Assembly: GCA_964515405.1 (NCBI GenBank)
Contig: CAZERD010000002.1
Coordinates: forward strand, 1,568-65,567
Direction: 5' to 3'
Length of the DNA: 64,000 nt
Source: an uncultured Desulfurellales bacterium
GTDB taxonomy: Bacteria; Campylobacterota_A; Desulfurellia; Desulfurellales; CAZERD01
Shown: piece by piece, positions 2,670 through 62,505 of the stretch
How the letters are laid out: every line of letters starts with the position of its first letter
How positions within the stretch are numbered: position 1 is the first letter of the stretch
Made by a program: the position numbers and the translations under genes
Notes under the pieces: generated by a model
The model's input: the letters and a program-made list of their open reading frames with translations, nothing else
What the model was told of the DNA's origin: nothing
Databases searched by the model: none

Positions 2670-3908
2670 ATGTGGGTTAAGGTAAAATGGCTGATAGCCT
2701 CAGCACTCACGAGTCTTGTTGCAGCAGCTCTAATCATCGGAGGGGCACTCGCTCCTGAGGCCATGGCAGCAAAACCTATCAACATTGCTATTATCTCTGG
2801 GACATCGGCCTTGGTGGGAAAATCCGTGGTATACGGGGCAGAACTCGCAGCAAAACAGATAAACGAAAAAGGGGGAATAAACGGGCGTCCTATAAAACTC
2901 TTTATCTATGATGACCATCTGAAATCTACAGACGCTGTTGAGGCTTTCCAGAGAGCTGTTTACAGGCATCATGTCGCTGCCGTCGTAGGTAACTGGATAA
3001 GTGAAATAGCCCTCTCTCTTGAACCTTGGGCTGCAAGATTGCACACTATCTATATTATTACAGGAGCCGCTTCCCCAAAGATAACTCGACTTGTGCATAG
3101 GGAGTACAACAGGTATAAATACGTATTTCAGCTCAAGTACAATGCCATAGAGATGGCTAAAACCGTCTGTGCGTTGGTTCACCAGGATCTTGTCAAGAAG
3201 CTTGGATACAAAACAGCATACGTAGTTAGCGAAAACGCAGCATGGACGCTCCCTCTGGACAACGAGTATCTCAAATGCTTGCCCAAGGCTGGTCTTAAGG
3301 TATACGGCCACCTGAGATTCGCACCTAATACAAACGACTTCACGCCAATATTCAGCAAGATTGAGAAGTACAAACCAGATGTGCTGATAATAGGATGGTC
3401 CCACGCAGCCCTCAAAGCAACAGTCCAATGGCATGAACAACACATACCTGCCCCACTAGTAGGTGTAAACGCTCAGGCCACAGCTTCAGATTTCTGGCAG
3501 AAGACAAATGGAGCCACGAACTGGGTAGTAACACAAGCGGAGGGCTCTCCAGCGCCTATAACACCCAAAACAATCCCGTTCGTTAAAGCTTATAAAAAGA
3601 TGTTCCATACACTCCCTGCCTATGCTGGGTATACCACATACGACGCAATATATGTTCTGAAAAATGCTATAGAAAAGTCAAAATCAACAAATCCCAATAA
3701 GCTTGTCAAAGCACTGGAAAAGACAAACTATGTAGGTGTAATGGGTCACATTGAATTCTACAGCAAGAGCGAACCGTTCACCCACGGAATAAAATGGGGT
3801 AAGGGCTACGCCACTGGCGTTATGCTACAATGGCAGAATGGCAAGCTCGTTACCATATGGCCGGCTGACGCTGCAACGGGTAAACTCAGTCTCCCAAGCA
3901 AAAAGTAG
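2670..3908 (+). CDS. ABC transporter periplasmic substrate-binding protein, branched-chain-amino-acid (LivJ/K) family
   Basis: Signal peptide ending AMA|AKP. Type-I periplasmic binding-protein pattern (ISGTSALVGKS, YDDHLKS...). First gene of a livHM(GF) operon. Strong RBS GAGGGAGG. Confidence 0.8.
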   Translation: MWVKVKWLIASALTSLVAAALIIGGALAPEAMAAKPINIAIISGTSALVGKSVVYGAELAAKQINEKGGINGRPIKLFIYDDHLKSTDAVEAFQRAVYRHHVAAVVGNWISEIALSLEPWAARLHTIYIITGAASPKITRLVHREYNRYKYVFQLKYNAIEMAKTVCALVHQDLVKKLGYKTAYVVSENAAWTLPLDNEYLKCLPKAGLKVYGHLRFAPNTNDFTPIFSKIEKYKPDVLIIGWSHAALKATVQWHEQHIPAPLVGVNAQATASDFWQKTNGATNWVVTQAEGSPAPITPKTIPFVKAYKKMFHTLPAYAGYTTYDAIYVLKNAIEKSKSTNPNKLVKALEKTNYVGVMGHIEFYSKSEPFTHGIKWGKGYATGVMLQWQNGKLVTIWPADAATGKLSLPSKK

Positions 3909-8215: not shown

Positions 8216-8289
8216 ATCTAATACCTCCTTTCCTCACTATAATTAATCTACATCTTTTTTAGCCTACTTAAAAGCCATTTACAACAAGC

Positions 8290-8317
8290 TTGACTTTTTG
8301 CATGTTTGAAATATATT
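8290..8317 (+). promoter_or_regulatory. Sigma-70-like promoter for the DIP operon
   Basis: TTGACT (8290-8295), 16-nt spacer, TATATT (8312-8317). It lies about 75 nt upstream of the ATG at 8391. Confidence 0.45.
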
Positions 8318-8390
8318 TTAAATGCAGTCTTTTCTTAGTTTACCCTTTTGATTCAAACGCTACCGCGAGAGTCCATCAGGAGAAAGGCAG

Positions 8391-52052: not shown

Positions 52053-54008
52053 CTACTGATCTTGCTGCTCCACGGCCTCCTTAACCATATCTATCACCTT
52101 CATGTCTTCTATAGTGCTCAGATCCTGCTCTATACTCCTCCTATTGGCTATATCCTTTAATATTCTCCTCAACAACTTCCCGGAACGGGTTTTGGGTAAT
52201 GCTTTAACGAAATATATACCTGAGGGTCTGGCAATTGGGCCTATCTGCTGGGCCACATGCTCCCTAAGTTCCCTAACAAGCTCATCCCTTGTCAAATACT
52301 CAGCCTTCTCCTTAAGAACAACAAATGCTATGATCTCTTCTCCAGTAACCTCGTTAAACCTGCCAACCACAGCCGCCTCCGCCACATTTATATGAGAGGT
52401 CAATGCCGTTTCAATCTCAACACAACTTATCCTATGGGCAGACACATTTATCACATCATCCTCTCTACCCTCCATCCAAAAATAGCCATCCTTATCCACA
52501 TAAGCCAAATCTCCTGTGTAGTAGTATCTACCACCAAACTTATCCCAGTATATTTCTCTGTAAAGACTGTCATTACCCCATATCGTCCTTATCATTGATG
52601 GCCAAGGTTTCTCAAAGACCAAATGCCCCCTTCTGTTGGGCTCCAAAATCGGGTTGCCCTCATCATCAACAACCATTGGAAATATACCAGGCACTGGTAT
52701 CCCAACAGAACCAGGTCTCTGAGGAACTATGGGAAGGGAAGAAATCATATGCCCAGCAGTTTCTGTTTGCCCGTAAGCATCAATAACTGGACATCTCCCG
52801 CCACCTACATGTTCATAATACCACATCCACGCAGCTGGATTTAGCTTCTCGCCTCCAGTGGTAAGCAACCTGAGGGATGATATATCATGCTTCCTCGTCG
52901 GAGCTTCCCCAAACCTCATCAATGCCCTTATAGCCGTGGGAGCTGTATACATAACATTTATATTGTACTTCTCAACAAGGTACCACCACTGGGACGGATC
53001 AGGATAGGTGGGCACGCCCTCATATATAAACGTTGTAGCCCCTATAGACAAGGGACCATAAAGGGTATAGGAATGTCCTGATATCCACCCTATATCTGCC
53101 GTGCTCCAGAACGTATCCTCATCCTTAAGATCAAATATCCATTTGGTTGTAAGTATTCTCCACAGAAGATACCCAGCAGTAGTGTGAACAACACCTTTCG
53201 GTTTACCTGTAGAACCAGAGGTATACAAAACAAACAATGGATCCTCAGAGTCCATCTCCGCTGCCTCACAACTGGGGTGGGAATAGTCCGGATCACTCAT
53301 GAGATCATGCCACCAAAAATCCCTTAAGGTCTTCATAGGGATCTCTGAGCGTGTGTGTTCAACCACCACCACATACCTCACACCAGAAGCCTCCCTCAAA
53401 GCTGCATCTACATTTCCCTTAAGAGAGGTGGTCTTACCAGCTCTTATACCTCCGTCTGCTGTTATCAGCACAGTAGGTTTAAGATCATTCACCCTCTCGG
53501 CTAATGCCTTTGATGACAAACCAGCAAATACAACCGAATGTATAGCACCTATTCTTGCACAGGCAAGCATGGCTATGGCAAGTTCAGGGATCATCGGCAT
53601 GTACATCACTACCGCATCCCCCCTTCTAACTCCTAGAGTCTTCAGCACATTTGCAAATTTTCCAACCTGAAAAGACAGTTCCCTGTAGGTAAGTATCCTG
53701 CTCTCCCCAGTCTCACTTTCCCATATAATAGCTGCTTTGTTCTTCCTCCACCCTCTAAGATGCCTATCAATACAGTTGTAAGCCATATTCAACTTACCAC
53801 CAACAAAGAACCTGTAAAATGGTGGATCGGAATCATCCAGCACGGACTCATACATTCTAAACCAGCTTATCTCCTCCCTTGCAAAACGGTCCCAGAACCC
53901 CACAAAGTCTCTCTCCGCCTCCTCTGAAAACCTCCTATACAGCTCTGGTGTGAGATTGGCCTTTTCAAGAAAATCTGATACAACCCCCACTTCCCTTACA
54001 GCCACCAT
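52053..54008 (-). CDS. acs: Acetyl-CoA synthetase (AMP-forming)
   Basis: YTSGSTGKPKGV, YGQTETAG, YYTGD and the C-terminal LPKTRSGKLLRR (the acetylatable-lysine motif). 651 aa. Confidence 0.93.
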   Translation of the reverse strand: MVAVREVGVVSDFLEKANLTPELYRRFSEEAERDFVGFWDRFAREEISWFRMYESVLDDSDPPFYRFFVGGKLNMAYNCIDRHLRGWRKNKAAIIWESETGESRILTYRELSFQVGKFANVLKTLGVRRGDAVVMYMPMIPELAIAMLACARIGAIHSVVFAGLSSKALAERVNDLKPTVLITADGGIRAGKTTSLKGNVDAALREASGVRYVVVVEHTRSEIPMKTLRDFWWHDLMSDPDYSHPSCEAAEMDSEDPLFVLYTSGSTGKPKGVVHTTAGYLLWRILTTKWIFDLKDEDTFWSTADIGWISGHSYTLYGPLSIGATTFIYEGVPTYPDPSQWWYLVEKYNINVMYTAPTAIRALMRFGEAPTRKHDISSLRLLTTGGEKLNPAAWMWYYEHVGGGRCPVIDAYGQTETAGHMISSLPIVPQRPGSVGIPVPGIFPMVVDDEGNPILEPNRRGHLVFEKPWPSMIRTIWGNDSLYREIYWDKFGGRYYYTGDLAYVDKDGYFWMEGREDDVINVSAHRISCVEIETALTSHINVAEAAVVGRFNEVTGEEIIAFVVLKEKAEYLTRDELVRELREHVAQQIGPIARPSGIYFVKALPKTRSGKLLRRILKDIANRRSIEQDLSTIEDMKVIDMVKEAVEQQDQ

Positions 54009-54146: not shown

Positions 54147-54599
54147 TTATTGTGAGTGCGAACCACCTAGTACAACCTCCTCGGCCTTGCTCCATGGCGG
54201 CGAGACTATACAGAGAAAAGTAAACTCACTATCCGATCTGTTTTCAGCCCACTGAACCACGTTCGGCGCTATGTAAATAGCCATACCCGGTTCAACTCTT
54301 ATTGTTTTGCCACCCACATGAAGTAACGCGACCCCATCAAGTATAAAATAAACCTGCGCGCTCCTTGTAAGTTTATGCGGAGCAGTACTCCTATGAGCAC
54401 CAAGCGTTATATAAGCCACGCTAAAACCAGGGTTTACCCCATCATTCTTAGGATGAATCACCTCCCTCACATTAAAACCTCCACCAAACACCTTAACAGG
54501 ACATTGAGAGACCCTTTTCACCAAGAACTCAACACCACCAGCATATAGTGGACTAACAACCACAAATACTATTAGCAACGACAGAAAAACCCTCCTCAT
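54147..54599 (-). CDS. Secreted cupin-domain protein
   Basis: ATG at 54599 is preceded by GGAGGGGGTG. A signal peptide is present (LLIVFVVVSPLYAGG). The cupin motifs are G..R.T.PH......Q.YFILDG and P...V.W.EN. Confidence 0.65.
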   Translation of the reverse strand: MRRVFLSLLIVFVVVSPLYAGGVEFLVKRVSQCPVKVFGGGFNVREVIHPKNDGVNPGFSVAYITLGAHRSTAPHKLTRSAQVYFILDGVALLHVGGKTIRVEPGMAIYIAPNVVQWAENRSDSEFTFLCIVSPPWSKAEEVVLGGSHSQ

Positions 54600-54663
54600 T
54601 TCACCCCCTCCCCTGGGTTTTCCGAAATTATATTCACACAGACACACAGGATCAATAATAGTA

Positions 54664-54680
54664 TAGGGGGAAACCCCCTA
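54664..54680 (-). terminator. Short GC hairpin at the hcp stop codon
   Basis: TAGGGGG-aaa-CCCCCTA overlaps the hcp stop. The downstream T-tract on the minus strand is only weak (TATACTATTATTG). Confidence 0.35.
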
Positions 54681-56294
54681 CCCTATCAACTCCCTCATAT
54701 CTGTATCAACGTCTGTGATACCCGATATGTTGAACTTATCAACAAGCACATTCAACACATCCGGTGAAACAAAGGCTGGCAACGTCGGTCCCAGTTTGAT
54801 ATTCTTCACACCCAAATATAATAACGCCAACAAAACAGCAACAGCCTTCTGCTCGTACCAGGCTATATTGTACGCTATAGGGAGTTCGTTAATATCATTT
54901 AATCCAAATACCTCCTTGAGTTTCAAAGCTATAAGGAGAAGTGAATAACTATCATTGCATTGTCCTGCATCAAGCACCCTCGGTATGCCGTTAATATCTC
55001 CAAGGTCAAGCTTGTTGTATCGGAATTTCGCACACCCAGCCGTTAGTATAACCGTATCACGCGGGAGTCTTCTGGCAAATTCCGTATAATATTCTCTTGT
55101 TTTGTGTCTACCGTCACACCCAGCCATCACCACAAACTTCCTTATAGTCCCAGATTTAACAGCTTCAACAACCTTATCTGCAAGCCTAAAGACCTGTTCA
55201 TGCGCGAAACCTCCAATTATTCTGCCGTGCTCTATTTCAACAGGAGGATTACACGTCCTTGCCATTTCTATTATCTCAGAGAAATCCTTGGGCTTGCCAT
55301 CCTTCCTGTCTGATATATGCTTAACTCCAGGAAATCCTACATTACCTGTTGTAAATACTCTATGCTTATAGGAATCCTTCGGTGGAGTGAGGCAATTTGT
55401 CGTCACGAGTATAGGCCCATTGAACAATTCAAACTCCCTATCCTGCATCCACCACGCGTTGCCGTAATTACCCACGAAATGCTTATACCTCTTGAAGGCA
55501 GGATAATAATTCGCTGGTAGCATCTCTCCATGAGTATACACATCCACACCTGTACCCTCAGTTTGCTCAAGCAGCTCTTCCATATCTTTAAGATCATGAC
55601 CCGAGATGAGTATTCCCGGATTCCTCCTGACACCTATATCCACCTCTGTCATTTCCGGGTGCCCGTAGGTCTCCGTATTCGCCCTATCCAGCAAAGCCAT
55701 AACCTTAACAGCTGTTTCACCTGTTCTCATAACATACCCCATTAGCTCTTCCACGCTCAGCTTCTCTGTGGTAGCCGCTAAGGCATTCGCAACAAATCTA
55801 GTCACATTATCATCCCTATACCCCAACACCGAAGCGTGATCGTAGTATGCAGCTATGCCTTTGAGACCATATATAATCAATTCCTTCAAGGAACGAATAT
55901 CCTCATCAGTCTCCTTTAGTATACCAGCATCCGCAGCCTTGGCCAAAAACTCCTCCTTAGTTGAACCAGTCCATACAGCAGAATCGTGCAGACTGTTCTC
56001 AGATACGCTGTATTTCCTCTTCAGCTCATCCCTTATTCTTAATCCTTCGCGAATAGCCTCTGTTATCCTGTCCTCATCAAAGTTGACGTTTGTAATAGTG
56101 GTAAACAGAGCCTTCGTCATAAACATGGATGCCTCCTTGTCCTGTTCGCCTGCCCTCTTTAAAACCACAGCTATACCCTTGGTAACATATACAAGCAGGT
56201 CCTCAAGATTGGCAACTTTCTCATTCTTCCCACAGATACCCCTCTTTACACACCCAGTATTTTTCAATGTCTCTTGACACTGATAGCAAAACAT
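54678..56294 (-). CDS. hcp: Hybrid-cluster protein / hydroxylamine reductase
   Basis: N-terminal Cys motif MFCYQCQET...C...GICGK, class-1 length of about 540 aa, and hybrid-cluster ligand regions (TNCL; GCDG; GQCND). ATG at 56294 has GGAGGTG 6 nt upstream. Confidence 0.93.
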
Positions 56295-56350
56295 AGTTAC
56301 ACCTCCTTGATTTTTCTGAGCACAGGTTATACTAATGGTTGTATGGTTCA

Positions 56351-56364
56351 TTGATGAAGGTCAA
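56351..56364. promoter_or_regulatory. FNR/CRP-type palindrome in the hcp / hcpR divergent region
   Basis: TTGAT-GAAG-GTCAA matches 9 of 10 positions of TTGAT-N4-ATCAA. Its centre is about 63 nt upstream of the hcp ATG and 4 nt upstream of the preferred regulator ATG. Confidence 0.45.
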
Positions 56365-56368
56365 GAAA

Positions 56369-57007
56369 ATGGAAAAAAAAGAAGCCATAAGGTTTTTACT
56401 GAAATCTCTGAAAATCAACTATGACCTTGATTTCTTCAACTATCTCAACTCCATCTCATCACTGGTAAGGAAGAAAAAAAGAGAAATCATATTCCTGGAA
56501 AATGAAGAGGGTTCAAACCTCTACTTCCTACTATCAGGTAGCGTAAAACTCTACAAAACAAATGATGAAGGAAGAGAAGCTGTCATACATTTCGTGGAAC
56601 CCGGAGAATTCTTCGCTGAAATTGTGTTGTTTCTGGAGAACAGATACCCAGTGAGTGCTATTACAATTAAAGAGTCCCAGTTACTATCAATAGATGCTGA
56701 AAAAATGTTTTACATAATCAGGAGTGATCCCGAACTCGCGATGAAACTCATAGGCATATTTGCCCATAGATTAAACTACATGGCTGATGTAATCAAAAAC
56801 TTGTCTATTATGGACACCCGCGATAAATTCCTCAACTACCTCAACAGGGTCAAGGACGAAAATAACATTATACATCTCAATATACCCAAGCAGGAAATAG
56901 CTCTCCTTCTTGGGATAGCACCGGAAACATTCTCCCGGGTACTAAAACAACTCTCAGAGCAGGGAATTCTTGAGATCCAGGGCAAAACAATAAAGTTGCT
57001 CAGATAG
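56369..57007 (+). CDS. Crp/Fnr-family transcriptional regulator (HcpR-like by position)
   Basis: cNMP-binding-like beta-barrel (LYFLLSGSVKLY....EGRE......PGEFF.E) and a C-terminal HTH (QEIALLLGIAPETFSRVLKQL). No N-terminal FNR Cys cluster. Divergent from hcp. The start is 56369 or 56354. Confidence 0.8.
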   Translation: MEKKEAIRFLLKSLKINYDLDFFNYLNSISSLVRKKKREIIFLENEEGSNLYFLLSGSVKLYKTNDEGREAVIHFVEPGEFFAEIVLFLENRYPVSAITIKESQLLSIDAEKMFYIIRSDPELAMKLIGIFAHRLNYMADVIKNLSIMDTRDKFLNYLNRVKDENNIIHLNIPKQEIALLLGIAPETFSRVLKQLSEQGILEIQGKTIKLLR

Positions 57008-58408
57008 TTACGGCTTCTCCCCAAAGAAAAACACTACCCAAGGCTCGCTGGGCCTACTTTCCAAATATCCCTTGAGATAATCCCATTGTATGTGTTCCTT
57101 TAAGAATTTCTCAGCATCAAACGGCATTCCACTTGAATTGCCCCAACGTGCCCAAAAACTCATATGCCTTGCCATTCTTGAGTCTATAACTTTTCCATCC
57201 ACAGCACCCCGAGGTTGAAAGGGCAAAGGTCTACCCAGCTGACTCATGTAATATCTGGGATCAAGCTCGTAGTGGCCATCTATCGTTCTTGAACTTGGGT
57301 TTATTTTGTGAAGATACACATCATAATGATCCGCTAGTATCCTTTTAGCTATATTTGCGTCAATTCGGCCGTAATACTTCTTCATAAGCTCCGTAAGCCT
57401 AACCTGTCTCGCCCCTTGATGTCTCCTTATATCTGCATAGCCCGTATTTGAACACTCAAGGTTCCTGATTCTGGGATCCAGGGGAGCATTAAACCCTATA
57501 TAATAGCCACTTTTCGTCTTCCATACATGATAGTACTTGAGCCCTAACTCAAGCCTCATAATCTCCCCAGTGTTGATATTCCCAAATAACCAATCATTCG
57601 CGTAACCCCCGGTATTACCCTTCAGCATTATCCTTACATAATCCTTCAACGTACTCCCATACTGCATAGCCTTCCTTATCCTAATAAACTCAGGTATTCC
57701 ATTGGGATTATAAGGCCTAAATCCACCTATAGTAGTCTCTGTACCAACTATTCCTGCACTCGTCACAAAGAAATCAGACATGCTGTATATGTAACCAGGC
57801 ATAGACTGCATAAGTATTCTGTAGCCTCTATTAGGTTTAAGATCCAATATAACATTCAAAAACTGACACACTGCAAAATTGCACCACGAATTATGAGCCA
57901 TAACGATACCACCACTCTTTGTGACCCTACCAGTAGCTATAAAAGCGCTACATTTGGTTTTTTGAGGGTGGTAATACCTACCCTCCTCCTGATTGGGCCA
58001 CCAATAATAAACAAGCTCAAAATAAGCGTTCCACAGCAACACATCCTTCCAACTAATATTCAAACCCCTCTTTCTCGCCCCGGCAGCTATACCTTTTATC
58101 TCAAACATATATTCCTTTGGCACCTTATTCGCATACAATTTCACAGCCCAGTGTCTAAAAAAAGACCATCTCTTCCCTGTGTTCCAGTACGTAAGGTACT
58201 TCATCGTCCGTAGAGCCTTCCCAAGCCTATCAGCTATTAGATACCCATACTCAACCCCCCTTTGATATGGTTTGCCCTCCACATGCACATATACCCATCC
58301 CGCCTTATCAAACCTATAACCCTTACCATATCTCATGACCGTACCAGCAACACCAAGACCCTGAAACAGGAAGACACAACCAAACACAAACATCACTACC
58401 ATTCTCAT
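57008..58408 (-). CDS. Secreted Ntn-hydrolase-like protein (phospholipase B-like / peptidase C45-like)
   Basis: Signal peptide, then KCSAFIATG...IVMAHNSW. This resembles the Cys-nucleophile CSALIK...HNTW context I recall for the phospholipase-B-like (LAMA) family. No search was done. Confidence 0.45.
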   Translation of the reverse strand: MRMVVMFVFGCVFLFQGLGVAGTVMRYGKGYRFDKAGWVYVHVEGKPYQRGVEYGYLIADRLGKALRTMKYLTYWNTGKRWSFFRHWAVKLYANKVPKEYMFEIKGIAAGARKRGLNISWKDVLLWNAYFELVYYWWPNQEEGRYYHPQKTKCSAFIATGRVTKSGGIVMAHNSWCNFAVCQFLNVILDLKPNRGYRILMQSMPGYIYSMSDFFVTSAGIVGTETTIGGFRPYNPNGIPEFIRIRKAMQYGSTLKDYVRIMLKGNTGGYANDWLFGNINTGEIMRLELGLKYYHVWKTKSGYYIGFNAPLDPRIRNLECSNTGYADIRRHQGARQVRLTELMKKYYGRIDANIAKRILADHYDVYLHKINPSSRTIDGHYELDPRYYMSQLGRPLPFQPRGAVDGKVIDSRMARHMSFWARWGNSSGMPFDAEKFLKEHIQWDYLKGYLESRPSEPWVVFFFGEKP

Positions 58409-58558
58409 ACTTACACCCCCAAGCTTTCCTCAAAGATAAGATTATATCCCACCTAGCAAAAGAATATAATACTCATGAAGCTCCATCAATCAAGACAAAC
58501 CCTTATTGAACAATAAGCCAGCTTTTGATATCCTCCCTTACAAACCGGGGGTGTTCCA

Positions 58559-60094
58559 ATGGAATTTAAAAGCTTACTGTTCCCCGAAGGTTATCCAAAG
58601 AGAGCAGAAATGCCACCATACTTCCACGACCTCCACCTTGACAGAATAGTAAATGACATAACCAGAGAAAGAGATGAATACAACCTCAAACCCCTATTCT
58701 ACACGAGCCTCAGAGACCCCGAGCTCATAAAATACAGACAGGAAATAGCATCCGAAATAGAAAAGCCACAAATACTACATCTAATAAAAGGTTTTTCAAA
58801 CTCCATCAATAAGGTCCGCGAGTATCTTAAAAGGGCAGAGCAATCACATTATCAGTACCAAAAGGAAAGATGGATACTCGACGGAGCATCTATATACTGC
58901 CAATCTGTAATAACACTTAAAAAGGAACTTGAAAAGTCCCAGCTAAGAGCCCGTGGTTTCTTAGACTTCATAGGATATATCTCATCATACGTAAAGTCCC
59001 AACCATTCACTGCGCTCCTCAAAGACACTAAAGAGACAAAAGATGCCTTAAGCAGTATTAAATATGCTCTCTTCATCAAGGAAAACAAAATAAAGGTACA
59101 GAGATACAATGGGGAGAAAGACTACGGAGAAGAAATACTGAGTGTCTTTGAAAGGTTCAAAGCCCCAGACGCCGAAGAGATACATATCGAAGTATCAGAC
59201 AGCGGTATAATGAACCACATTGAAGCAAAGATATTAGAGCTTGTGGCAAGGCTATACCCAAAAGAATTCAGTATGCTAGAGAATTTTTATAGCAAACACA
59301 AAACATTTATGGATAGCATGATCATAAGTTTTGAGAGGGAAGCACAGTTTTATGTGGCCTATATAGAGTACATACAGCCTCTTGAAGATATGGGCTTACA
59401 CTTCTGCTATCCAGATATATCAGACAAAGACGATATACTCAACAGGAATGGTTTTGATATTGCCTTGGCCCACACGATAATGAAGCAAAACAAAGGGAGA
59501 GTTGTACCCAATGACTTCGACCTGAAAAATGGAGAAAGGATATTCATAATAACTGGCCCCAACCAGGGCGGGAAAACAACATTTGCAAGGGCTTTCGGTC
59601 AAATACACTACCTATTCTCACTGGGACTAAAGGTTCCTGGCTCCGAATCCAGACTTCCTATATTCGATAGAATATATACGCATTTTGAAAGGGAAGAAAC
59701 AACAAGGAGTCTCAGGGGTAAACTGGAAGATGAACTCATTAGAATGAAGGAAATATTAGACAAAGCCACAGGGGATAGTATTATAATAATGAATGAATCT
59801 TTCTCCTCAACAAGTTTGGAGGATGCCCTTTTCTTAGCCAGTAGCATACTGAAACAGATACTTGATCTTGATGCAGTGGGTTTATTTGTCACCTTTATGT
59901 ATGAGCTATCCAGGATGGATAAGAGGATAGTAAGTCTCACGAGCACAGTTAGAAAGGATGATGTAACCCAGAGAACTTACAAAATTATCAGAAGAATGGC
60001 TGACGGCATATCTTATGCTCTATCGATAGCGAATAAGCACTGCCTCACATATAACTGCCTTATCAACAAACTAAAGAAGAGACTGGATGCATGA
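58559..60094 (+). CDS. MutS-related ATPase (domain III/V-like only), paralog A
   Basis: C-terminal MutS domain V with Walker A ITGPNQGGKTTFARAFGQ. The Walker-B position reads IIIMNESFSSTS, and the TH motif is degenerate (VTFMYEL). The N-terminal ~300 aa are helical, with no domain I and no Smr. Confidence 0.75.
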   Translation: MEFKSLLFPEGYPKRAEMPPYFHDLHLDRIVNDITRERDEYNLKPLFYTSLRDPELIKYRQEIASEIEKPQILHLIKGFSNSINKVREYLKRAEQSHYQYQKERWILDGASIYCQSVITLKKELEKSQLRARGFLDFIGYISSYVKSQPFTALLKDTKETKDALSSIKYALFIKENKIKVQRYNGEKDYGEEILSVFERFKAPDAEEIHIEVSDSGIMNHIEAKILELVARLYPKEFSMLENFYSKHKTFMDSMIISFEREAQFYVAYIEYIQPLEDMGLHFCYPDISDKDDILNRNGFDIALAHTIMKQNKGRVVPNDFDLKNGERIFIITGPNQGGKTTFARAFGQIHYLFSLGLKVPGSESRLPIFDRIYTHFEREETTRSLRGKLEDELIRMKEILDKATGDSIIIMNESFSSTSLEDALFLASSILKQILDLDAVGLFVTFMYELSRMDKRIVSLTSTVRKDDVTQRTYKIIRRMADGISYALSIANKHCLTYNCLINKLKKRLDA

Positions 60095-61593
60095 AAGTAC
60101 ATTTAATGTTTAAGGATAGAGATTTTAATATAAATCAACCGCTACCGCCTCACCACAAAGACTTAACATCAGACCTGGAATTAGAAATACTGTTTGAGGC
60201 CATGTCCAATGGAGACGAGCTCTTATACGATGCCTCAAAAAAAGCTCTACTCTCAAGCTTGGACGATATAGAAACCATACTATACAGACAGGGAGTGCTA
60301 AAGGACTGCATAAGAAATCCCAATACCGTCAGGGAAATATACTCCATAGCAACAGAAGCAATCCAAAAAGAAAAGGGATCTTTCTTATGGGCGTTCAGTA
60401 AAACCCCAGGGAGTATATTGTCCTCATCGGTCAGGCTTATGGAATCTTTAATAGACACACTAAAAAAACTCAAAGCAGTAGCGGATAGATATGCAGACAG
60501 CTTCACGTCCGAGGGGTTCACAAACTTTATCAATACTATAAGGGCTGAGCTAACAACGGAGTACTTCAATATCATACAAGAACATCTAAAGAGGCTCGAA
60601 TTTCGGTCCGGGATCCTTGTCAGTGCAGGCTTAGGCGAAGGTAATAGAGGAATAAATTATGTATTAAGAGAGCCCACTGGAGAGAATAAGGGGTGGAAAA
60701 CATTATTTAAAAGAGAGGAGTCCTACACCTTTTCCATACACGAGAGAGATGAAGCAGGATTCAAAGCACTCTCAGAACTGAAAGACAAAAGTTTGTATAC
60801 AGTGGCAACAGCAGCTTACAGAGTAACAGTACATGTCCTGAGCTTCTTCAAGACTCTACGTGCAGAGCTTGCATTCTACATAGGGGCCCTAAACCTTAGA
60901 AACAAACTACTTGAAATAGGAGAACCTGTGTGTTTCCCCCACCCTACGGTAAAAAATATTCGTTCCTTCAAGGGATTATATGAACCCTGTCTAGCCCTTA
61001 CATCTCAAAAGATTGTTGTGGGCAACGATCTCAGTAGCGAGGGAGTAAACATCGTATTTATAACCGGAGCCAACCAGGGTGGAAAATCTGTGTTCCTAAG
61101 AAGCATTGGTGTAGCACAGATTATGATGCAATGCGGCATGTTTGTGCCTGCCTCTGAATACTCAGGCCGTGTGTGCCCATCTATCTTCACACACTTCAAA
61201 AGACAAGAAGACGAAGAGATGGAGAGCGGCAAGTTTGACGAAGAAATGAAAAGAATGAGCTTTATAGTAGATAGAATTAACAAGGGGTCCTTGGTGTTGT
61301 TTAATGAGTCTTTTGCTTCTACTAACGAACTTGAGGGATCCGAGGTAGCCAAACAAATATTAATGGGGCTAATGGAAAGCGGAATTGAGTCATTTTATGT
61401 AACACATATGTACAGGTTGACCGAGGAATTCTTCAAAAAAGGGATCGATGGCGTTCTCTTTCTAAGGGCTCATAGAGATGAAGATGGAAGAAGAACGTTT
61501 AAAATAATACCGGGGGAACCCCTACACACAAGCTTCGGAAAGGACCTGTATATTAGGGTATTTGGAGACCTAACAACTGGAAATAACCCTTGA
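60091..61593 (+). CDS. MutS-related ATPase (domain III/V-like only), paralog B
   Basis: Overlaps paralog A by ATGA. Has Walker A ITGANQGGKSVFLRSIG, SGKFDEEM and Walker-B position LVLFNESFASTN. The TH motif is kept (VTHMYRL). No domain I and no Smr. Confidence 0.75.
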   Translation: MKVHLMFKDRDFNINQPLPPHHKDLTSDLELEILFEAMSNGDELLYDASKKALLSSLDDIETILYRQGVLKDCIRNPNTVREIYSIATEAIQKEKGSFLWAFSKTPGSILSSSVRLMESLIDTLKKLKAVADRYADSFTSEGFTNFINTIRAELTTEYFNIIQEHLKRLEFRSGILVSAGLGEGNRGINYVLREPTGENKGWKTLFKREESYTFSIHERDEAGFKALSELKDKSLYTVATAAYRVTVHVLSFFKTLRAELAFYIGALNLRNKLLEIGEPVCFPHPTVKNIRSFKGLYEPCLALTSQKIVVGNDLSSEGVNIVFITGANQGGKSVFLRSIGVAQIMMQCGMFVPASEYSGRVCPSIFTHFKRQEDEEMESGKFDEEMKRMSFIVDRINKGSLVLFNESFASTNELEGSEVAKQILMGLMESGIESFYVTHMYRLTEEFFKKGIDGVLFLRAHRDEDGRRTFKIIPGEPLHTSFGKDLYIRVFGDLTTGNNP

Positions 61594-61636
61594 CAATGGT
61601 GTATAATCTTAATATACTTTGCACTGCTTTTGTCTG

Positions 61637-61712
61637 GGGCCCATAGCTCAGCTGGTAGAGCCACCGGCTCATAACCGGTTGGTCCCAGGTTCGAGTCCTG
61701 GTGGGCCCACCA
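61637..61712 (+). tRNA. tRNA with anticodon CAT (elongator Met type; the Ile2/lysidine type is not excluded), CCA encoded
   Basis: The hand-folded cloverleaf has acceptor GGGCCCA/TGGGCCC and D arm GCTC-AGCTGGTA-GAGC. The anticodon arm is ACCGG-CTCATAA-CCGGT, and the T arm is CCAGG-TTCGAGT-CCTGG. The discriminator is A, followed by CCA. G1-C72 is paired, so this is not an initiator. Confidence 0.9.
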
Positions 61713-61719
61713 CTTACTA

Positions 61720-62505
61720 ATGAAGGTTTTGGAGTTAGTTTCAGTACTTGAAACATATTTTCCCAAATCCCTCCAAGAAGGTTGGGATAATTCCGGACTT
61801 CAAGTTTCCCCAGAGGATGATTCCATAGACGGTATATTGCTGTGCCTTGATGTAGGATTAGAATCTATTAGTGAAGCACGAACAAAAAAATGTAATCTTA
61901 TAATATCTCACCATCCGCTTATATTCAGAGATCTCAAGTCCGTTGACAAAAATATATATCCAGGGAACGTGATATACAGCGCTGTAAAACACGGTATTGG
62001 CATCTACAGTTTCCATACGAACCTGGATAAGGCAAACGGAGGATTAAATGATTTCCTCTGTAACCTATTAGGTCTACAGGACATCAGTCCCACTGAGAAA
62101 TCTCCCTTCTTAAGAATAGGTAGGCTCCCGAAGGCTATACCACTTGTAAAGCTCGTCAAACTCGTAAAAGAAATACTTGGAGTAAGCACAGTTAAGTATG
62201 TTGGAAAGGATGACTCCCTCATTGACTTAGTCTCCGTGTGCCCAGGCAGTGGAAGTAGCCTTATATACAACATCCCACGTGAAGTAGATCTGTTTATTAC
62301 TGGCGACCTAAAGCATCATGAAGCATTCTACGCCAGGGAGATAGGGATTAATGTTATAGATATCACGCACTTCTATAGCGAGACGGCCTCCAAACTACTA
62401 CTGAAGGAAAAAATAGCAGAACTATGCGGTGGAGTTAGGGTAATACTTAGTGAAACAGATAAAATACCTTGGAAATACTATGGAAGGGGAGGTGACCTTG
62501 AATAG
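61720..62505 (+). CDS. Nif3-family dinuclear metal-centre protein (YbgI/YqfO-like)
   Basis: N-terminus L......P..L.E.WDNSGLQV; ISHHPLIF; GI.IYS.HTNLD; ITGD.KHH. Confidence 0.88.
   Translation: MKVLELVSVLETYFPKSLQEGWDNSGLQVSPEDDSIDGILLCLDVGLESISEARTKKCNLIISHHPLIFRDLKSVDKNIYPGNVIYSAVKHGIGIYSFHTNLDKANGGLNDFLCNLLGLQDISPTEKSPFLRIGRLPKAIPLVKLVKLVKEILGVSTVKYVGKDDSLIDLVSVCPGSGSSLIYNIPREVDLFITGDLKHHEAFYAREIGINVIDITHFYSETASKLLLKEKIAELCGGVRVILSETDKIPWKYYGRGGDLE

What the first reader, a model, noticed from the sequence alone, without database searches (positions are those of the whole stretch)
58559..61593. Translationally coupled pair of MutS-domain-V ATPases with an Asn-substituted Walker B and no mismatch-binding or nuclease domain
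Two co-directional ORFs of 511 and 500 aa overlap by ATGA (60091-60094).

They are paralogs. Both open with L[LM]F-x(8-12)-PP-x2-[HK]DL and both end in a MutS-type ABC ATPase (GPNQGGKTTF / GANQGGKSVF).

In both, the canonical MutS Walker B, hhhhDE[IL]G.GTS, reads hhhhNESF.ST. The Mg-coordinating Asp is therefore Asn, while the catalytic Glu is kept.

The downstream TH motif is retained only in the second protein (VTHMY against VTFMY). That asymmetry recalls heterodimeric MSH proteins.

I see no domain I (mismatch-binding) signature, no clamp-length insertion and no Smr or other endonuclease domain. No mutL is nearby. The neighbours are a secreted hydrolase and a tRNA gene.

Paired MutS-V-only genes have been noted in comparative surveys of MutS subfamilies. 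I know of no assigned biochemical function. In this window this pair is the best candidate for an uncharacterised two-component nucleic-acid-surveillance or other ATP-driven system.
Basis: partly seen in the sequence, partly recalled or inferred. Interest (0 to 1): 0.7.

Follow-up and report, generated by a model that had tools for sequence, protein, structure and literature searches.

The report
MutS4A/MutS4B pair, a fluoride-regulon ATPase
The two overlapping genes are a new example of the known but uncharacterised MutS4A/MutS4B pair of DNA-repair-like ATPases. In most other bacteria this pair is switched on by a fluoride-sensing RNA, which gives the first testable clue to its function.

Summary
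Two co-directional ORFs (58559-60094, 511 aa; 60091-61593, 500 aa) overlap by ATGA. They are paralogues, and both carry hhhhNE in place of the MutS Walker B hhhhDE. Only the second keeps the H-loop His.

The pair is not a new kind. It matches the MutS4A/MutS4B subfamily of Lin, Nei & Ma (2007), whose signature is this same stop/start overlap.

Both proteins are more than "domain V only". Predicted structures match MutS and the MutS2 core over their full length: lever helices, a reduced clamp and the ATPase.

The Asn, the Phe/His asymmetry and a Gly-Lys in place of the MutS signature Ser-Thr are near-invariant across the family.

Family context was the main result:
- In 80 genomes from many phyla the pair is almost always intact.
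- In 50 of 67 testable loci it lies behind a fluoride riboswitch, either directly or within a co-directional gene string.
- Typical neighbours are crcB, enolase, Usp, Na+/H+ antiporters, FHL-like hydrogenase genes and a dynamin-like GTPase.
- It also sits in fluoride-resistance islands on enterobacterial plasmids.

This window's copy has no riboswitch and no fluoride genes nearby.

The function is untested. My best inference is an asymmetric heterodimeric ATP-driven clamp for fluoride stress with a remodelled Mg2+ site. Interest is moderate.

The parts
58559..60094 (+). MutS4A-type gene (511 aa): N-terminal lever helices, a small beta-hairpin clamp remnant (residues about 166-220), a MutS_V ATPase and a C-terminal helix-turn-helix
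   Evidence: ORF. Pfam MutS_V at residues 330-493, E = 8e-22. AlphaFold pLDDT 88. Full-length Foldseek matches to MutS, MSH3 and the MutS2 core. Full-length homologues at 45-52% identity.
60091..61593 (+). MutS4B-type gene (500 aa): same architecture. The clamp-equivalent region (residues about 170-220) is conserved in sequence but modelled with low confidence.
   Evidence: ORF. Pfam MutS_V at residues 323-448, E = 1.4e-21. AlphaFold pLDDT 70. Best Foldseek match is the T. thermophilus MutS2 core, 7vuf. Homologues at 50-56% identity.
60091..60094 (+). ATGA stop/start overlap (translational coupling), the signature gene structure of MutS4A/B
   Evidence: Sequence. The same 4-nt overlap occurs in 65 of 73 related loci. 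Described for MutS4 by Lin et al. 2007.
59555..59581 (+). A Walker A motif, GPNQGGKTT
   Evidence: Translation. Invariant G, N, G, K, T, T in 269 A-family sequences.
59714..59722 (+). A signature-motif position: RGK where MutS, MSH and MutS2 have (R/L)ST
59780..59797 (+). A Walker B motif IIIMNE: Asn412 replaces the Mg2+-coordinating Asp; the catalytic Glu is kept
   Evidence: Alignment to MSH3. Asn in 268 of 269 family members.
59888..59896 (+). A H-loop position VTF: the His of the MutS TH motif is Phe, so this site is degenerate
   Evidence: Phe in 263 of 269 sequences, His in 3.
61066..61092 (+). B Walker A motif, GANQGGKSV
61225..61233 (+). B signature-motif position: SGK, invariant in the B family, where MutS2 has LST
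61291..61308 (+). B Walker B motif LVLFNE: Asn405 replaces Asp
   Evidence: Alignment to B. subtilis MutS2. Asn in 119 of 120 sequences.
61399..61407 (+). B H-loop VTH: His retained, so this is presumably the catalytically competent site
   Evidence: His in 120 of 120 sequences.
58409..58558 (+). 150-nt upstream intergenic region. It holds no fluoride riboswitch, unlike most homologous loci.
   Evidence: Rfam at E <= 10 finds no RF01734. My own covariance model with filters off gives 2.6 bits, E = 6.7, at best. Rfam at gathering thresholds on the whole window finds only the tRNA.

Best explanation
The locus is a MutS4A/MutS4B operon.

Shown or strongly indicated:
- The two products are paralogous MutS-family ABC-type ATPases. 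Each has lever helices, a reduced clamp and an ATPase domain, much like the MutS2 core without its KOW and Smr domains.
- They are made in fixed stoichiometry through the ATGA overlap and almost certainly work as an A-B heterodimer.
- The two ATP sites are built differently. B keeps the H-loop His. A has Phe there, so A probably only binds nucleotide.
- Both sites have a remodelled metal pocket. The Walker B Asp that holds Mg2+ is Asn, and the trans-acting signature Ser-Thr is Gly-Lys.
- Family-wide, the pair is a member of the fluoride-riboswitch regulon. This window's copy has lost, or never had, the riboswitch.

Inferred:
- The heterodimer is an ATP-gated clamp on DNA, most likely branched or recombination intermediates, that operates when fluoride accumulates.
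- The Asn/Lys pocket lowers its dependence on canonical Mg2+ coordination. Nucleotide switching would then not be jammed by Mg-fluoride/ADP complexes that poison ordinary Mg-ATP enzymes.
- A variant of the same idea is that such a complex deliberately locks the clamp closed.
For: Identity:
- Gene structure, Pfam content and paralogy match Lin et al.'s definition of MutS4A/B.
- Full-length homologues at 49-54% identity are adjacent gene pairs in Thermoanaerobacter species. That genus supplied Lin's MutS4 example.

Heterodimer:
- A lies directly upstream of B in essentially all 73 loci that hold both genes. 65 of them have the 4-nt overlap.
- The complementary Phe/His asymmetry is near-invariant.

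Architecture.

Mg2+ site:
- Residue-level alignments are, conservation.
- The engineered E. coli MutS D693N mutant has lowered Mg2+ affinity, impaired fast switching and impaired repair in vivo (PMC2857095; PDB 3k0s).
- MutS sites do bind ADP-metal-fluoride (PDB 1nne, MutS-ADP-BeF3).

Fluoride link:
- Rfam RF01734 hits lie directly upstream of MutS4A in L008, L020 and L068.
- My own covariance model finds riboswitches in 65 of 80 loci.
- 38 of 67 testable loci have a riboswitch within 400 nt upstream of A. Another 12 have one leading a co-directional gene string that ends in A.
- The closest B homologue found (56% identity) has its own riboswitch 42 nt upstream, in an otherwise unrelated neighbourhood.
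- Recurrent neighbours are CrcB, enolase, Usp, Na+/H+ exchanger, MFS transporter, histidine phosphatase, P-type ATPase and FHL-like hydrogenase genes.
- On the E. coli plasmid p027_SK3a the order is riboswitch, antiporter, Usp, MutS4A, MutS4B. Next to these lie crcB, gpmA, eno, usp, ppaC and a CLC-F gene.
- Weinberg et al. 2010 already listed "DNA repair (mutS)" genes behind the crcB motif.

DNA as substrate: one report found that a mycobacterial MutS4 operon raised homologous recombination in M. smegmatis.
Against: - In this window there is no riboswitch and no fluoride-related gene within 64 kb. About a quarter of related loci (17 of 67) also show no riboswitch link. Fluoride control is therefore not universal and may not apply to this organism.
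- No biochemical data exist for any MutS4 protein. The substrate and the effect of the Asn/Lys pocket are inferences.
- The E. cloacae FRM fluoride operon confers high resistance without MutS4 genes.
- The regulon is otherwise metabolic and ion-homeostatic, with no other DNA-repair genes.
- The B model is only moderate in confidence, and no heterodimer model could be made.
- The dynamin-like GTPase of the same regulon has canonical G motifs when its sequence is read by eye (sequence printed). Metal-site remodelling is therefore not a general feature of the regulon's NTPases.
Confidence: 0.55

Rival explanations
1. The pair is a recombination or repair modulator unrelated to fluoride. It would act as a minimal MSH4-MSH5-like or MutS2-like heterodimer that binds recombination intermediates and promotes or edits homologous recombination. 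The riboswitch linkage would then be just one of several regulatory inputs.
For: - Homology and fold match the MutS family.
- A mycobacterial MutS4 operon raised recombination frequency in M. smegmatis.
- This window and 17 of 67 related loci lack a riboswitch.
Against: - 50 of 67 loci are riboswitch-linked across many phyla.
- The pair keeps a private riboswitch even outside fluoride islands.
- No recombination or repair genes recur nearby.
- The single functional study is indirect.
Confidence: 0.15
2. The pair is a translation or ribosome quality-control factor, analogous to B. subtilis MutS2, which senses collided ribosomes. It would clear ribosomes stalled when fluoride-metal complexes trap translational GTPases.
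For: - The MutS2 core is the structural match that covers the targets best (7vuf, TM-score about 0.5-0.6).
- MutS2-disome structures are among the hits (7qv3).
- MutS4 lacks domains I and II, as MutS2 does.
Against: - MutS4 has none of MutS2's KOW or Smr domains.
- It scores 67-79 bits against a 400-bit cut-off for TIGR01069.
- No translation genes recur in the neighbourhoods.
Confidence: 0.1
3. The pair is an ATP-driven 'reactivase' or chaperone for fluoride-poisoned Mg enzymes such as enolase or pyrophosphatase. The precedent is KamC, a MutS-like ATPase that NCBI names as the lysine 5,6-aminomutase reactivase.
For: - KamC (NF052383) is the top NCBIfam hit for B, which shows that MutS_V ATPases are used outside nucleic-acid work.
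- Enolase lies within 10 kb in 29 of 80 loci and is often immediately upstream of A.
Against: - The KamC score is 79.5 bits against a 300-bit cut-off and covers only the ATPase core.
- Shared riboswitch control is enough to explain the adjacency to enolase.
- Many pairs have a riboswitch but no enolase.
- I found no literature on KamC's mechanism.
Confidence: 0.1
4. The pair is an anti-phage or anti-plasmid nucleic-acid surveillance system.
For: It is a two-gene ATPase module that is widely and patchily distributed and is sometimes carried on plasmids.
Against: - No meaningful PADLOC match.
- No effector or nuclease domain.
- No full-length copy in 50,697 phage records.
- The neighbourhoods are fluoride and ion-homeostasis genes, not defence islands.
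Confidence: 0.03

Closest known systems
MutS4A/MutS4B subfamily (Lin, Nei & Ma 2007, Nucleic Acids Res 35:7591; PMC2190696)
   Same: - Two adjacent paralogues.
- The stop codon of the first overlaps the start codon of the second.
- Only the MutSac/MutS_V domain is recognised by sequence.
- Patchy distribution across distant phyla, including Thermoanaerobacter.
- Function unknown.
   Different: Nothing structural differs. This copy is only 45-56% identical to any other member found, and unlike most members it has no fluoride riboswitch.
MutS2 (RqcU), core region (PDB 7vuf, 7vuk, 9kce, 7qv3)
   Same: Both lack domains I and II. Both have lever helices, a clamp and an ABC-type ATPase. It is the structural match that covers the targets best.
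   Different: MutS2 is a homodimer with C-terminal KOW and Smr domains, a canonical hhhhDE Walker B and an S-T signature. MutS4 is a heterodimer of paralogues without those domains, with hhhhNE and G-K.
Eukaryotic heterodimeric MSH proteins (MSH2-MSH3, MSH2-MSH6, MSH4-MSH5)
   Same: They are heterodimers of paralogues with non-equivalent ATP sites. From general knowledge, not tested here, MSH4-MSH5 lacks the mismatch-binding domain I.
   Different: They keep domains II-IV at full size and the canonical DE Walker B. They are eukaryotic and work with MutL homologues.
E. coli MutS D693N (PDB 3k0s; Lebbink et al. 2010, PMC2857095)
   Same: It has the same Asp-to-Asn change at the Walker B Mg2+ ligand.
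   Different: It is an engineered loss-of-function mutant with lower Mg2+ affinity, slow switching and defective repair. In MutS4 the Asn is the conserved wild-type state and comes with a Lys in the signature motif.
Fluoride riboswitch (crcB motif, RF01734) super-regulon (Weinberg et al. 2010, read here; Baker et al. 2012, seen only as a citation)
   Same: Most MutS4A/B pairs lie behind this riboswitch. Their companions are crcB, a CLC-F gene, enolase, pyrophosphatase, Usp, Na+/H+ antiporter and formate-hydrogen-lyase-type genes.
   Different: The window's pair has no riboswitch and no regulon genes nearby. The literature lists these genes only as 'mutS / DNA repair'. In the library I searched I found no link to the MutS4 name and no assigned role.
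KamC (NCBIfam NF052383, lysine 5,6-aminomutase reactivase ATPase)
   Same: It is a MutS_V-type ATPase of about 500 aa that works outside mismatch repair.
   Different: Similarity is confined to the ATPase core (63-80 bits against a 300-bit cut-off). There is no aminomutase context.

Membership tests
MutS4A/MutS4B (Lin et al. 2007) | The proteins contain the MutSac (Pfam MutS_V) domain and no MutS-I, MutS-II or Smr domain | tested here: met
   Pfam finds only MutS_V in A and B. In 40 + 40 homologues there is no MutS_I, II, IV or Smr.
MutS4A/MutS4B (Lin et al. 2007) | Two adjacent paralogous genes (4A then 4B) on the same strand | tested here: met
   The same order holds in about 72 of 73 related loci.
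MutS4A/MutS4B (Lin et al. 2007) | The stop codon of 4A overlaps the start codon of 4B | tested here: met
   ATGA at 60091-60094. Found in 65 of 73 related loci.
MutS4A/MutS4B (Lin et al. 2007) | Phylogenetic grouping with the reference members (T. tengcongensis, Thermoplasma, mycobacterial OEM_51400/51410) | tested here: inconclusive
   Full-length homologues at 49-54% identity are adjacent pairs in several Thermoanaerobacter species. The reference sequences themselves were not available (no supplement held), and no tree was built.
MutS1 (mismatch repair MutS) | Mismatch-binding domain I and connector domain II; scores above the equivalog HMM cut-off | tested here: not met
   No MutS_I or MutS_II. 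TIGR01070 scores 60-89 bits against a 641.7-bit cut-off; NF003810 scores 66-93 against 480.
MutS2 (endonuclease MutS2 / RqcU) | C-terminal Smr (and KOW) domain; scores above the equivalog HMM cut-off | tested here: not met
   No Smr. TIGR01069 scores 67-79 bits against a 400-bit cut-off. The fold of the core region is nevertheless similar.
KamC reactivase ATPase | Scores above the NF052383 equivalog cut-off | tested here: not met
   63 and 79.5 bits against a 300-bit cut-off.
Fluoride-riboswitch regulon | An RF01734 aptamer in the 5' leader of the gene or of its operon | tested here: not met
   For this window: none found. For the family: 38 loci direct plus 12 via an operon, out of 67.
Fluoride-riboswitch regulon | Fluoride-induced expression, or a contribution to fluoride tolerance | not testable with these tools
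   This needs RNA-seq or a reporter with and without NaF, and deletion phenotypes.
Known anti-phage defence systems (PADLOC) | Significant match to a defence-system protein model | tested here: not met
   Only P-loop-level hits, with E = 1e-3 to 1.5e-2.

The most novel reading that the evidence does not exclude
MutS4A/B may be a fluoride-adapted molecular switch. The invariant Walker B Asn and the signature-motif Lys would create an ATP site that does not rely on canonical Mg2+ coordination. Such a site would either resist ADP-Mg-fluoride trapping or be deliberately locked by it. A MutS2-like heterodimeric clamp could then act on DNA or nucleoprotein targets in fluoride-poisoned cells. If so, this would be the first protein in the fluoride regulon whose catalytic chemistry, and not just its dosage or transport role, is tuned to fluoride. 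It would also assign a function to a MutS subfamily that has had none since 2007.
Probability: 0.2. Interest if true: 0.8.

Novelty: new member of a known kind. Interest (0 to 1): 0.55.

Why it matters
MutS4A/B is a large, phylum-spanning family. With A as query there are about 1,070 representatives at 50% identity (E <= 1e-30). B has relatives in at least 560 species-level genomes, and there are 48 plasmid records. No biochemical function is known.

Genome annotation calls these proteins "DNA mismatch repair protein MutS", which the domain content does not support.

The "mutS" genes behind fluoride riboswitches have gone unexplained since 2010. A 2024 review of fluoride resistance does not mention them.

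Three observations together turn a vague orphan into concrete experiments:
- The riboswitch-linked "mutS" genes and the MutS4A/B subfamily are the same thing.
- The Mg2+-ligand Asp is universally Asn, with a Lys in the signature motif.
- One of the two ATP sites is degenerate.

The experiments are fluoride phenotypes of deletion mutants, and the Mg2+ and fluoride dependence of the ATPase compared with Asn-to-Asp revertants.

The pair also rides in fluoride-resistance islands on conjugative and mobilizable enterobacterial plasmids. That is relevant to engineering fluoride tolerance for organofluorine degradation.

Tried and rejected
- PADLOC scan of both proteins: only weak P-loop hits. Defence reading rejected.
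- tblastn against phages: no full-length copy.
- Fluoride riboswitch in the window: none found with Rfam at gathering thresholds on all 64 kb, Rfam at E <= 10 on 57900-58700, or my own covariance model with filters off on 57000-62000.
- tblastn of 17 regulon gene clusters against the window: nothing.
- Alignment of the window's upstream region with those of the nearest relatives: no shared element.
- Promoter and terminator scan of 58300-61800: counts not clearly above the shuffles, and no plus-strand promoter-like site upstream of A.
- A-B fusion as 'Rosetta stone' evidence: P0287 (1026 aa) looked like a fusion, but its middle is out-of-frame sequence, so it is a frameshift artefact.
- Exact look-up of the window's protein A to identify the source contig: not on record.
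- Reference MutS4 accessions: no supplement is held for Lin et al..
- Baker et al. 2012 could not be read.
- Literature searches linking fluoride to MutS or MutS4 function returned nothing relevant. A search on KamC's mechanism also returned nothing.
- Correction: an interim count of '73 of 80 loci with a riboswitch' came from a scripting error. The correct figure is 65 of 80.


Full report
**1. The observation**

The window holds two co-directional ORFs:
- A: 58559-60094, 511 aa.
- B: 60091-61593, 500 aa.

The stop codon of A and the start codon of B share ATGA at 60091-60094.

BLASTP of A against B gives 32% identity over 220 residues of the C-terminal half, E = 6e-27.

- A: GPNQGGKTT, IIIMNE, VTF.
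- B: GANQGGKSV, LVLFNE, VTH.

HMMER alignments to human MSH3 (for A) and B. subtilis MutS2 (for B) put the Asn on the Walker B Asp. They put Phe/His on the His of the MutS TH motif.

At the trans-acting signature motif, MutS proteins have S-T-F. A has G-K-L (as RGKL) and B has G-K-F (as SGKF).

tRNA-Met(CAT) follows at 61637-61712. The upstream neighbour on the other strand is a secreted phospholipase-B-like protein. Downstream lie genes for a NIF3 protein, a zinc-ribbon protein and an RNase H-like protein.

The GC content of the pair (40.6%) is close to that of the window (42.7%).

**2. Domain content and fold**

Pfam recognises only MutS_V in both proteins.

Scanning 40 homologues of each protein one by one gives MutS_V in 40 of 40 for both. 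MutS_III is weakly hit in 6 of 40 A homologues and in no B homologue. MutS_I, II, IV and Smr never appear.

NCBIfam scores are far below the equivalog cut-offs for MutS1, MutS2 and KamC.

By fold, though, the proteins are not "domain V only".
- The AlphaFold model of A (pLDDT 88, pTM 0.84) has long N-terminal helices, a beta-hairpin at residues 169-182, the ATPase and a C-terminal helix pair.
- Foldseek aligns about 480-600 columns of this model to MutS, MSH2/3/6 and MutS2. The T. thermophilus MutS2 core (7vuf) is covered best, with TM-score 0.61 normalised to the target.
- The B model is less confident (pLDDT 70, residues 170-215 disordered). It gives the same result, with 7vuf as top hit.

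So each protein has domain-III-like levers, a much reduced clamp, and domain V. No solved structure of a closer relative exists.

**3. What family it is**

Each protein has thousands of full-length homologues at about 45-56% identity. They occur in Firmicutes (Bacillota), Chloroflexota, Deltaproteobacteria (Desulfobacterota and relatives), Thermotogae, Spirochaetes, Verrucomicrobia, Bacteroidota, Actinobacteria and others.

With A as query, an exhaustive search finds 1,073 representatives of 50%-identity clusters at E <= 1e-30.

Lin, Nei & Ma (2007) defined a subfamily "MutS4". [quoted passage not shown] Their example was Thermoanaerobacter tengcongensis, and the function was unstudied.

The window's pair meets each of these structural criteria. 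Its homologues include adjacent pairs in several Thermoanaerobacter species, for example WP_003869704/WP_003869705.

I could not obtain Lin's reference sequences, so phylogenetic placement is inferred, not shown.

The only functional report I found is indirect: a Mycobacterium yongonense MutS4 operon raised recombination frequency when placed in M. smegmatis.

**4. Conservation of the pair and its unusual residues**

In 80 loci fetched from one-genome-per-species contigs, A lies directly upstream of B wherever the contig allows. L060 is the exception: there the two genes are 4.5 kb apart.

65 of 73 loci have the 4-nt overlap: 59 ATGA and 6 GTGA.

Motif conservation:

| Position | A family (269 sequences) | B family (120 sequences) |
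|---|---|---|
| Walker B Asp position | Asn in 268 | Asn in 119 |
| H-loop | Phe in 263, His in 3 | His in 120 |
| Signature motif | [R/S]-G-K predominant | S-G-K essentially invariant |

The heterodimer-like asymmetry and the altered metal pocket are therefore defining, selected features. They are not decay.

**5. Genomic context elsewhere: the main new result**

I clustered all ORFs of the 80 loci. The following neighbours recur within 10 kb (identities confirmed by Pfam, except for enolase, the hydrogenase-type genes and the P-type ATPase, which I identified by reading their sequences):

| Neighbour | Loci (of 80) |
|---|---|
| Dynamin-family GTPase with DUF6062 | 30 |
| Enolase | 29 |
| Universal stress protein (Usp) | 28 |
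| MFS transporter | 20 |
| Hydrogenase-4 / formate-hydrogen-lyase-type genes | 18 |
| CrcB | 17 |
| 145-aa protein with no Pfam match | 15 |
| Histidine phosphatase | 11 |
| Na+/H+ exchanger | 11 |
| P-type ATPase | 6 |

This is the gene set known for fluoride riboswitches.

Rfam at gathering thresholds found 13 RF01734 aptamers in seven loci. Three of them lie directly upstream of MutS4A, in L008, L020 and L068.

A covariance model built from twelve of these hits found 141 matches at E < 0.1 in the 80 loci and none in the window. Counts from that search:
- 65 of 80 loci have at least one match at E < 0.01. 70 of 80 have a match or a regulon gene.
- The remaining loci are either short contigs or longer loci (L001, L003, L005, L014, L061) that lack both.
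- Of 67 loci with enough upstream DNA, 38 have a same-strand riboswitch within 400 nt of the start of A.
- Another 12 have one leading a co-directional, closely spaced gene string that ends in A-B. The intervening genes include enolase, the dynamin-like GTPase, antiporter plus Usp, and MFS.

The closest B homologue I could place (56% identity) has a riboswitch 42 nt upstream of its A gene, although none of its other neighbours relates to fluoride. The pair can therefore be a stand-alone fluoride-controlled unit.

The pair also occurs on 48 plasmid records, including Klebsiella, Citrobacter, Enterobacter and E. coli. On E. coli p027_SK3a the annotated layout is:
- riboswitch, cation:proton antiporter, Usp, MutS4A, MutS4B;
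- adjacent to a second riboswitch-led unit that runs ppaC-like (DHHA2), usp, eno, gpmA, crcB, P-type ATPase;
- followed by a third riboswitch and a CLC-type channel gene.

That adjacent block matches the experimentally validated fluoride-resistance operon of E. cloacae FRM, which itself lacks the MutS genes.

Weinberg et al. (2010) had already noted that the crcB motif precedes "genes ... involved in DNA repair (mutS)". I found no paper that connects this with MutS4 or proposes a role. A 2024 review of fluoride resistance never mentions MutS.

**6. This window's copy**

No riboswitch lies upstream of A. Rfam finds none at E <= 10. My own model with filters off gives 2.6 bits at best. None occurs elsewhere in the 64 kb.

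No regulon gene is detectable by tblastn.

About a quarter of related loci (17 of 67) are likewise unlinked.

Whether this organism induces the operon with fluoride by other means cannot be decided from sequence.

**7. How it most likely works**

Shown: the paralogy, the coupling, the conserved pairing, the MutS2-core-like fold, the asymmetric H-loop, the Asn/Gly-Lys pocket and the family-wide riboswitch control.

Established knowledge:
- MutS proteins are dimeric ABC-type ATPases. Each composite site uses Walker A, Walker B and the H-loop of one subunit and the signature motif of the other. Nucleotide state moves the levers and clamp around DNA.
- The Walker B Asp holds the catalytic Mg2+. 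In E. coli MutS the D693N mutation lowers Mg2+ affinity, slows ATP-driven switching and impairs repair.
- MutS sites bind ADP-metal-fluoride analogues (PDB 1nne).
- Fluoride poisons Mg-dependent phosphoryl-transfer enzymes through metal-fluoride complexes (review text).

Inference:
- A-B is an obligate heterodimer with one competent site (B: His, plus the R-G-K signature of A in trans) and one regulatory site (A: Phe).
- The Asn/Lys pocket makes nucleotide switching less dependent on canonical Mg2+ coordination. It would then tolerate Mg-fluoride, or respond to it.
- By family analogy, and from the one recombination report, the substrate is most likely DNA, perhaps branched intermediates.

The identity and the family's fluoride link are secure. 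The substrate and the chemistry are hypotheses.

**8. Rivals**

- A fluoride-independent recombination factor.
- A MutS2-like ribosome-rescue factor.
- A KamC-like reactivase for fluoride-poisoned enzymes.
- A defence system.

The first three remain possible at low probability. The defence reading has no support.

**9. Verdict**

The finding is real and was described accurately. It is a new, rather divergent, riboswitch-less member of a subfamily named in 2007, not a new system.

Its value lies in what the family context reveals. MutS4A/B is the unexplained "mutS" of the fluoride regulon, and it carries an invariant alteration of the Mg2+ site. Interest is moderate (0.55). Novelty: new member of a known kind.

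Noticed in passing
L070:4736-6463 (example); cluster c2 in 30 of 80 related loci: A dynamin-family GTPase (Dynamin_N) with a Cys-rich DUF6062 C-terminal domain recurs next to MutS4A/B. It often sits directly behind a fluoride riboswitch (e.g. L056, L052, L010). I found no mention of such a regulon member in the papers I read. Its G1, G3 and G4 motifs look canonical by eye.
   Followed up: partly
L044:8445-8882 (example); cluster c11 in 15 loci: A protein of about 145 aa with no Pfam match recurs in these fluoride loci, usually between enolase and MutS4A (L021, L041, L044, L059).
   Followed up: no
L039:1807-1866 and L039:1919-1979: Two fluoride-riboswitch matches lie in tandem, about 50 nt apart, just downstream of MutS4B and upstream of a Na+/H+ antiporter and Usp genes.
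   Followed up: no
L068:16651-16822: An M-box (Mg2+) riboswitch (129 bits) precedes a P-type ATPase of about 880 aa at the edge of a fluoride-riboswitch island. Magnesium and fluoride control are juxtaposed here.
   Followed up: no
L060:3694-11551: This is the only locus where MutS4A and MutS4B are separated, by about 4.5 kb. The intervening genes include the dynamin-like GTPase and a HEAT-repeat protein. Weak riboswitch matches lie ahead of A (3694-3754) and ahead of the GTPase-B string (8256-8325).
   Followed up: partly
L043 (about 6.5-8.4 kb), L046:6939-7616, L026: Some loci carry a third, shorter or partial MutS4-like ORF beside the A-B pair.
   Followed up: no
window 61590-61618: The best sigma-70-like match in the region (TTGACA, 17 nt spacer, TATACT; 11 of 12) overlaps the stop codon of B (61591-61593). 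It lies just upstream of tRNA-Met (61637-61712), so the tRNA probably has its own promoter.
   Followed up: no
window 54147-57007: A hybrid-cluster (prismane) protein gene (54678-56351, minus strand) is flanked by a cupin gene and a divergent Crp/Fnr-type regulator (56339-57007). Together with the acetyl-CoA-synthetase-like ORF at 52053-54008, this suggests an anaerobic lifestyle.
   Followed up: no
P0287 (1026 aa): An apparent MutS4A-MutS4B fusion protein in the database is a frameshift artefact. About 80 residues at the junction are out-of-frame, Arg/Pro/Gly-rich sequence.
   Followed up: yes
L081 (E. coli plasmid p027_SK3a, NZ_CP067312.1:143059-168546): The MutS4A/B-containing fluoride island on this mobilizable plasmid lies next to a group II intron reverse transcriptase and an IS30 transposase. 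48 plasmid records carry the pair: 21 predicted conjugative, 15 mobilizable and 12 non-mobilizable. The island therefore appears to be spreading horizontally.
   Followed up: partly
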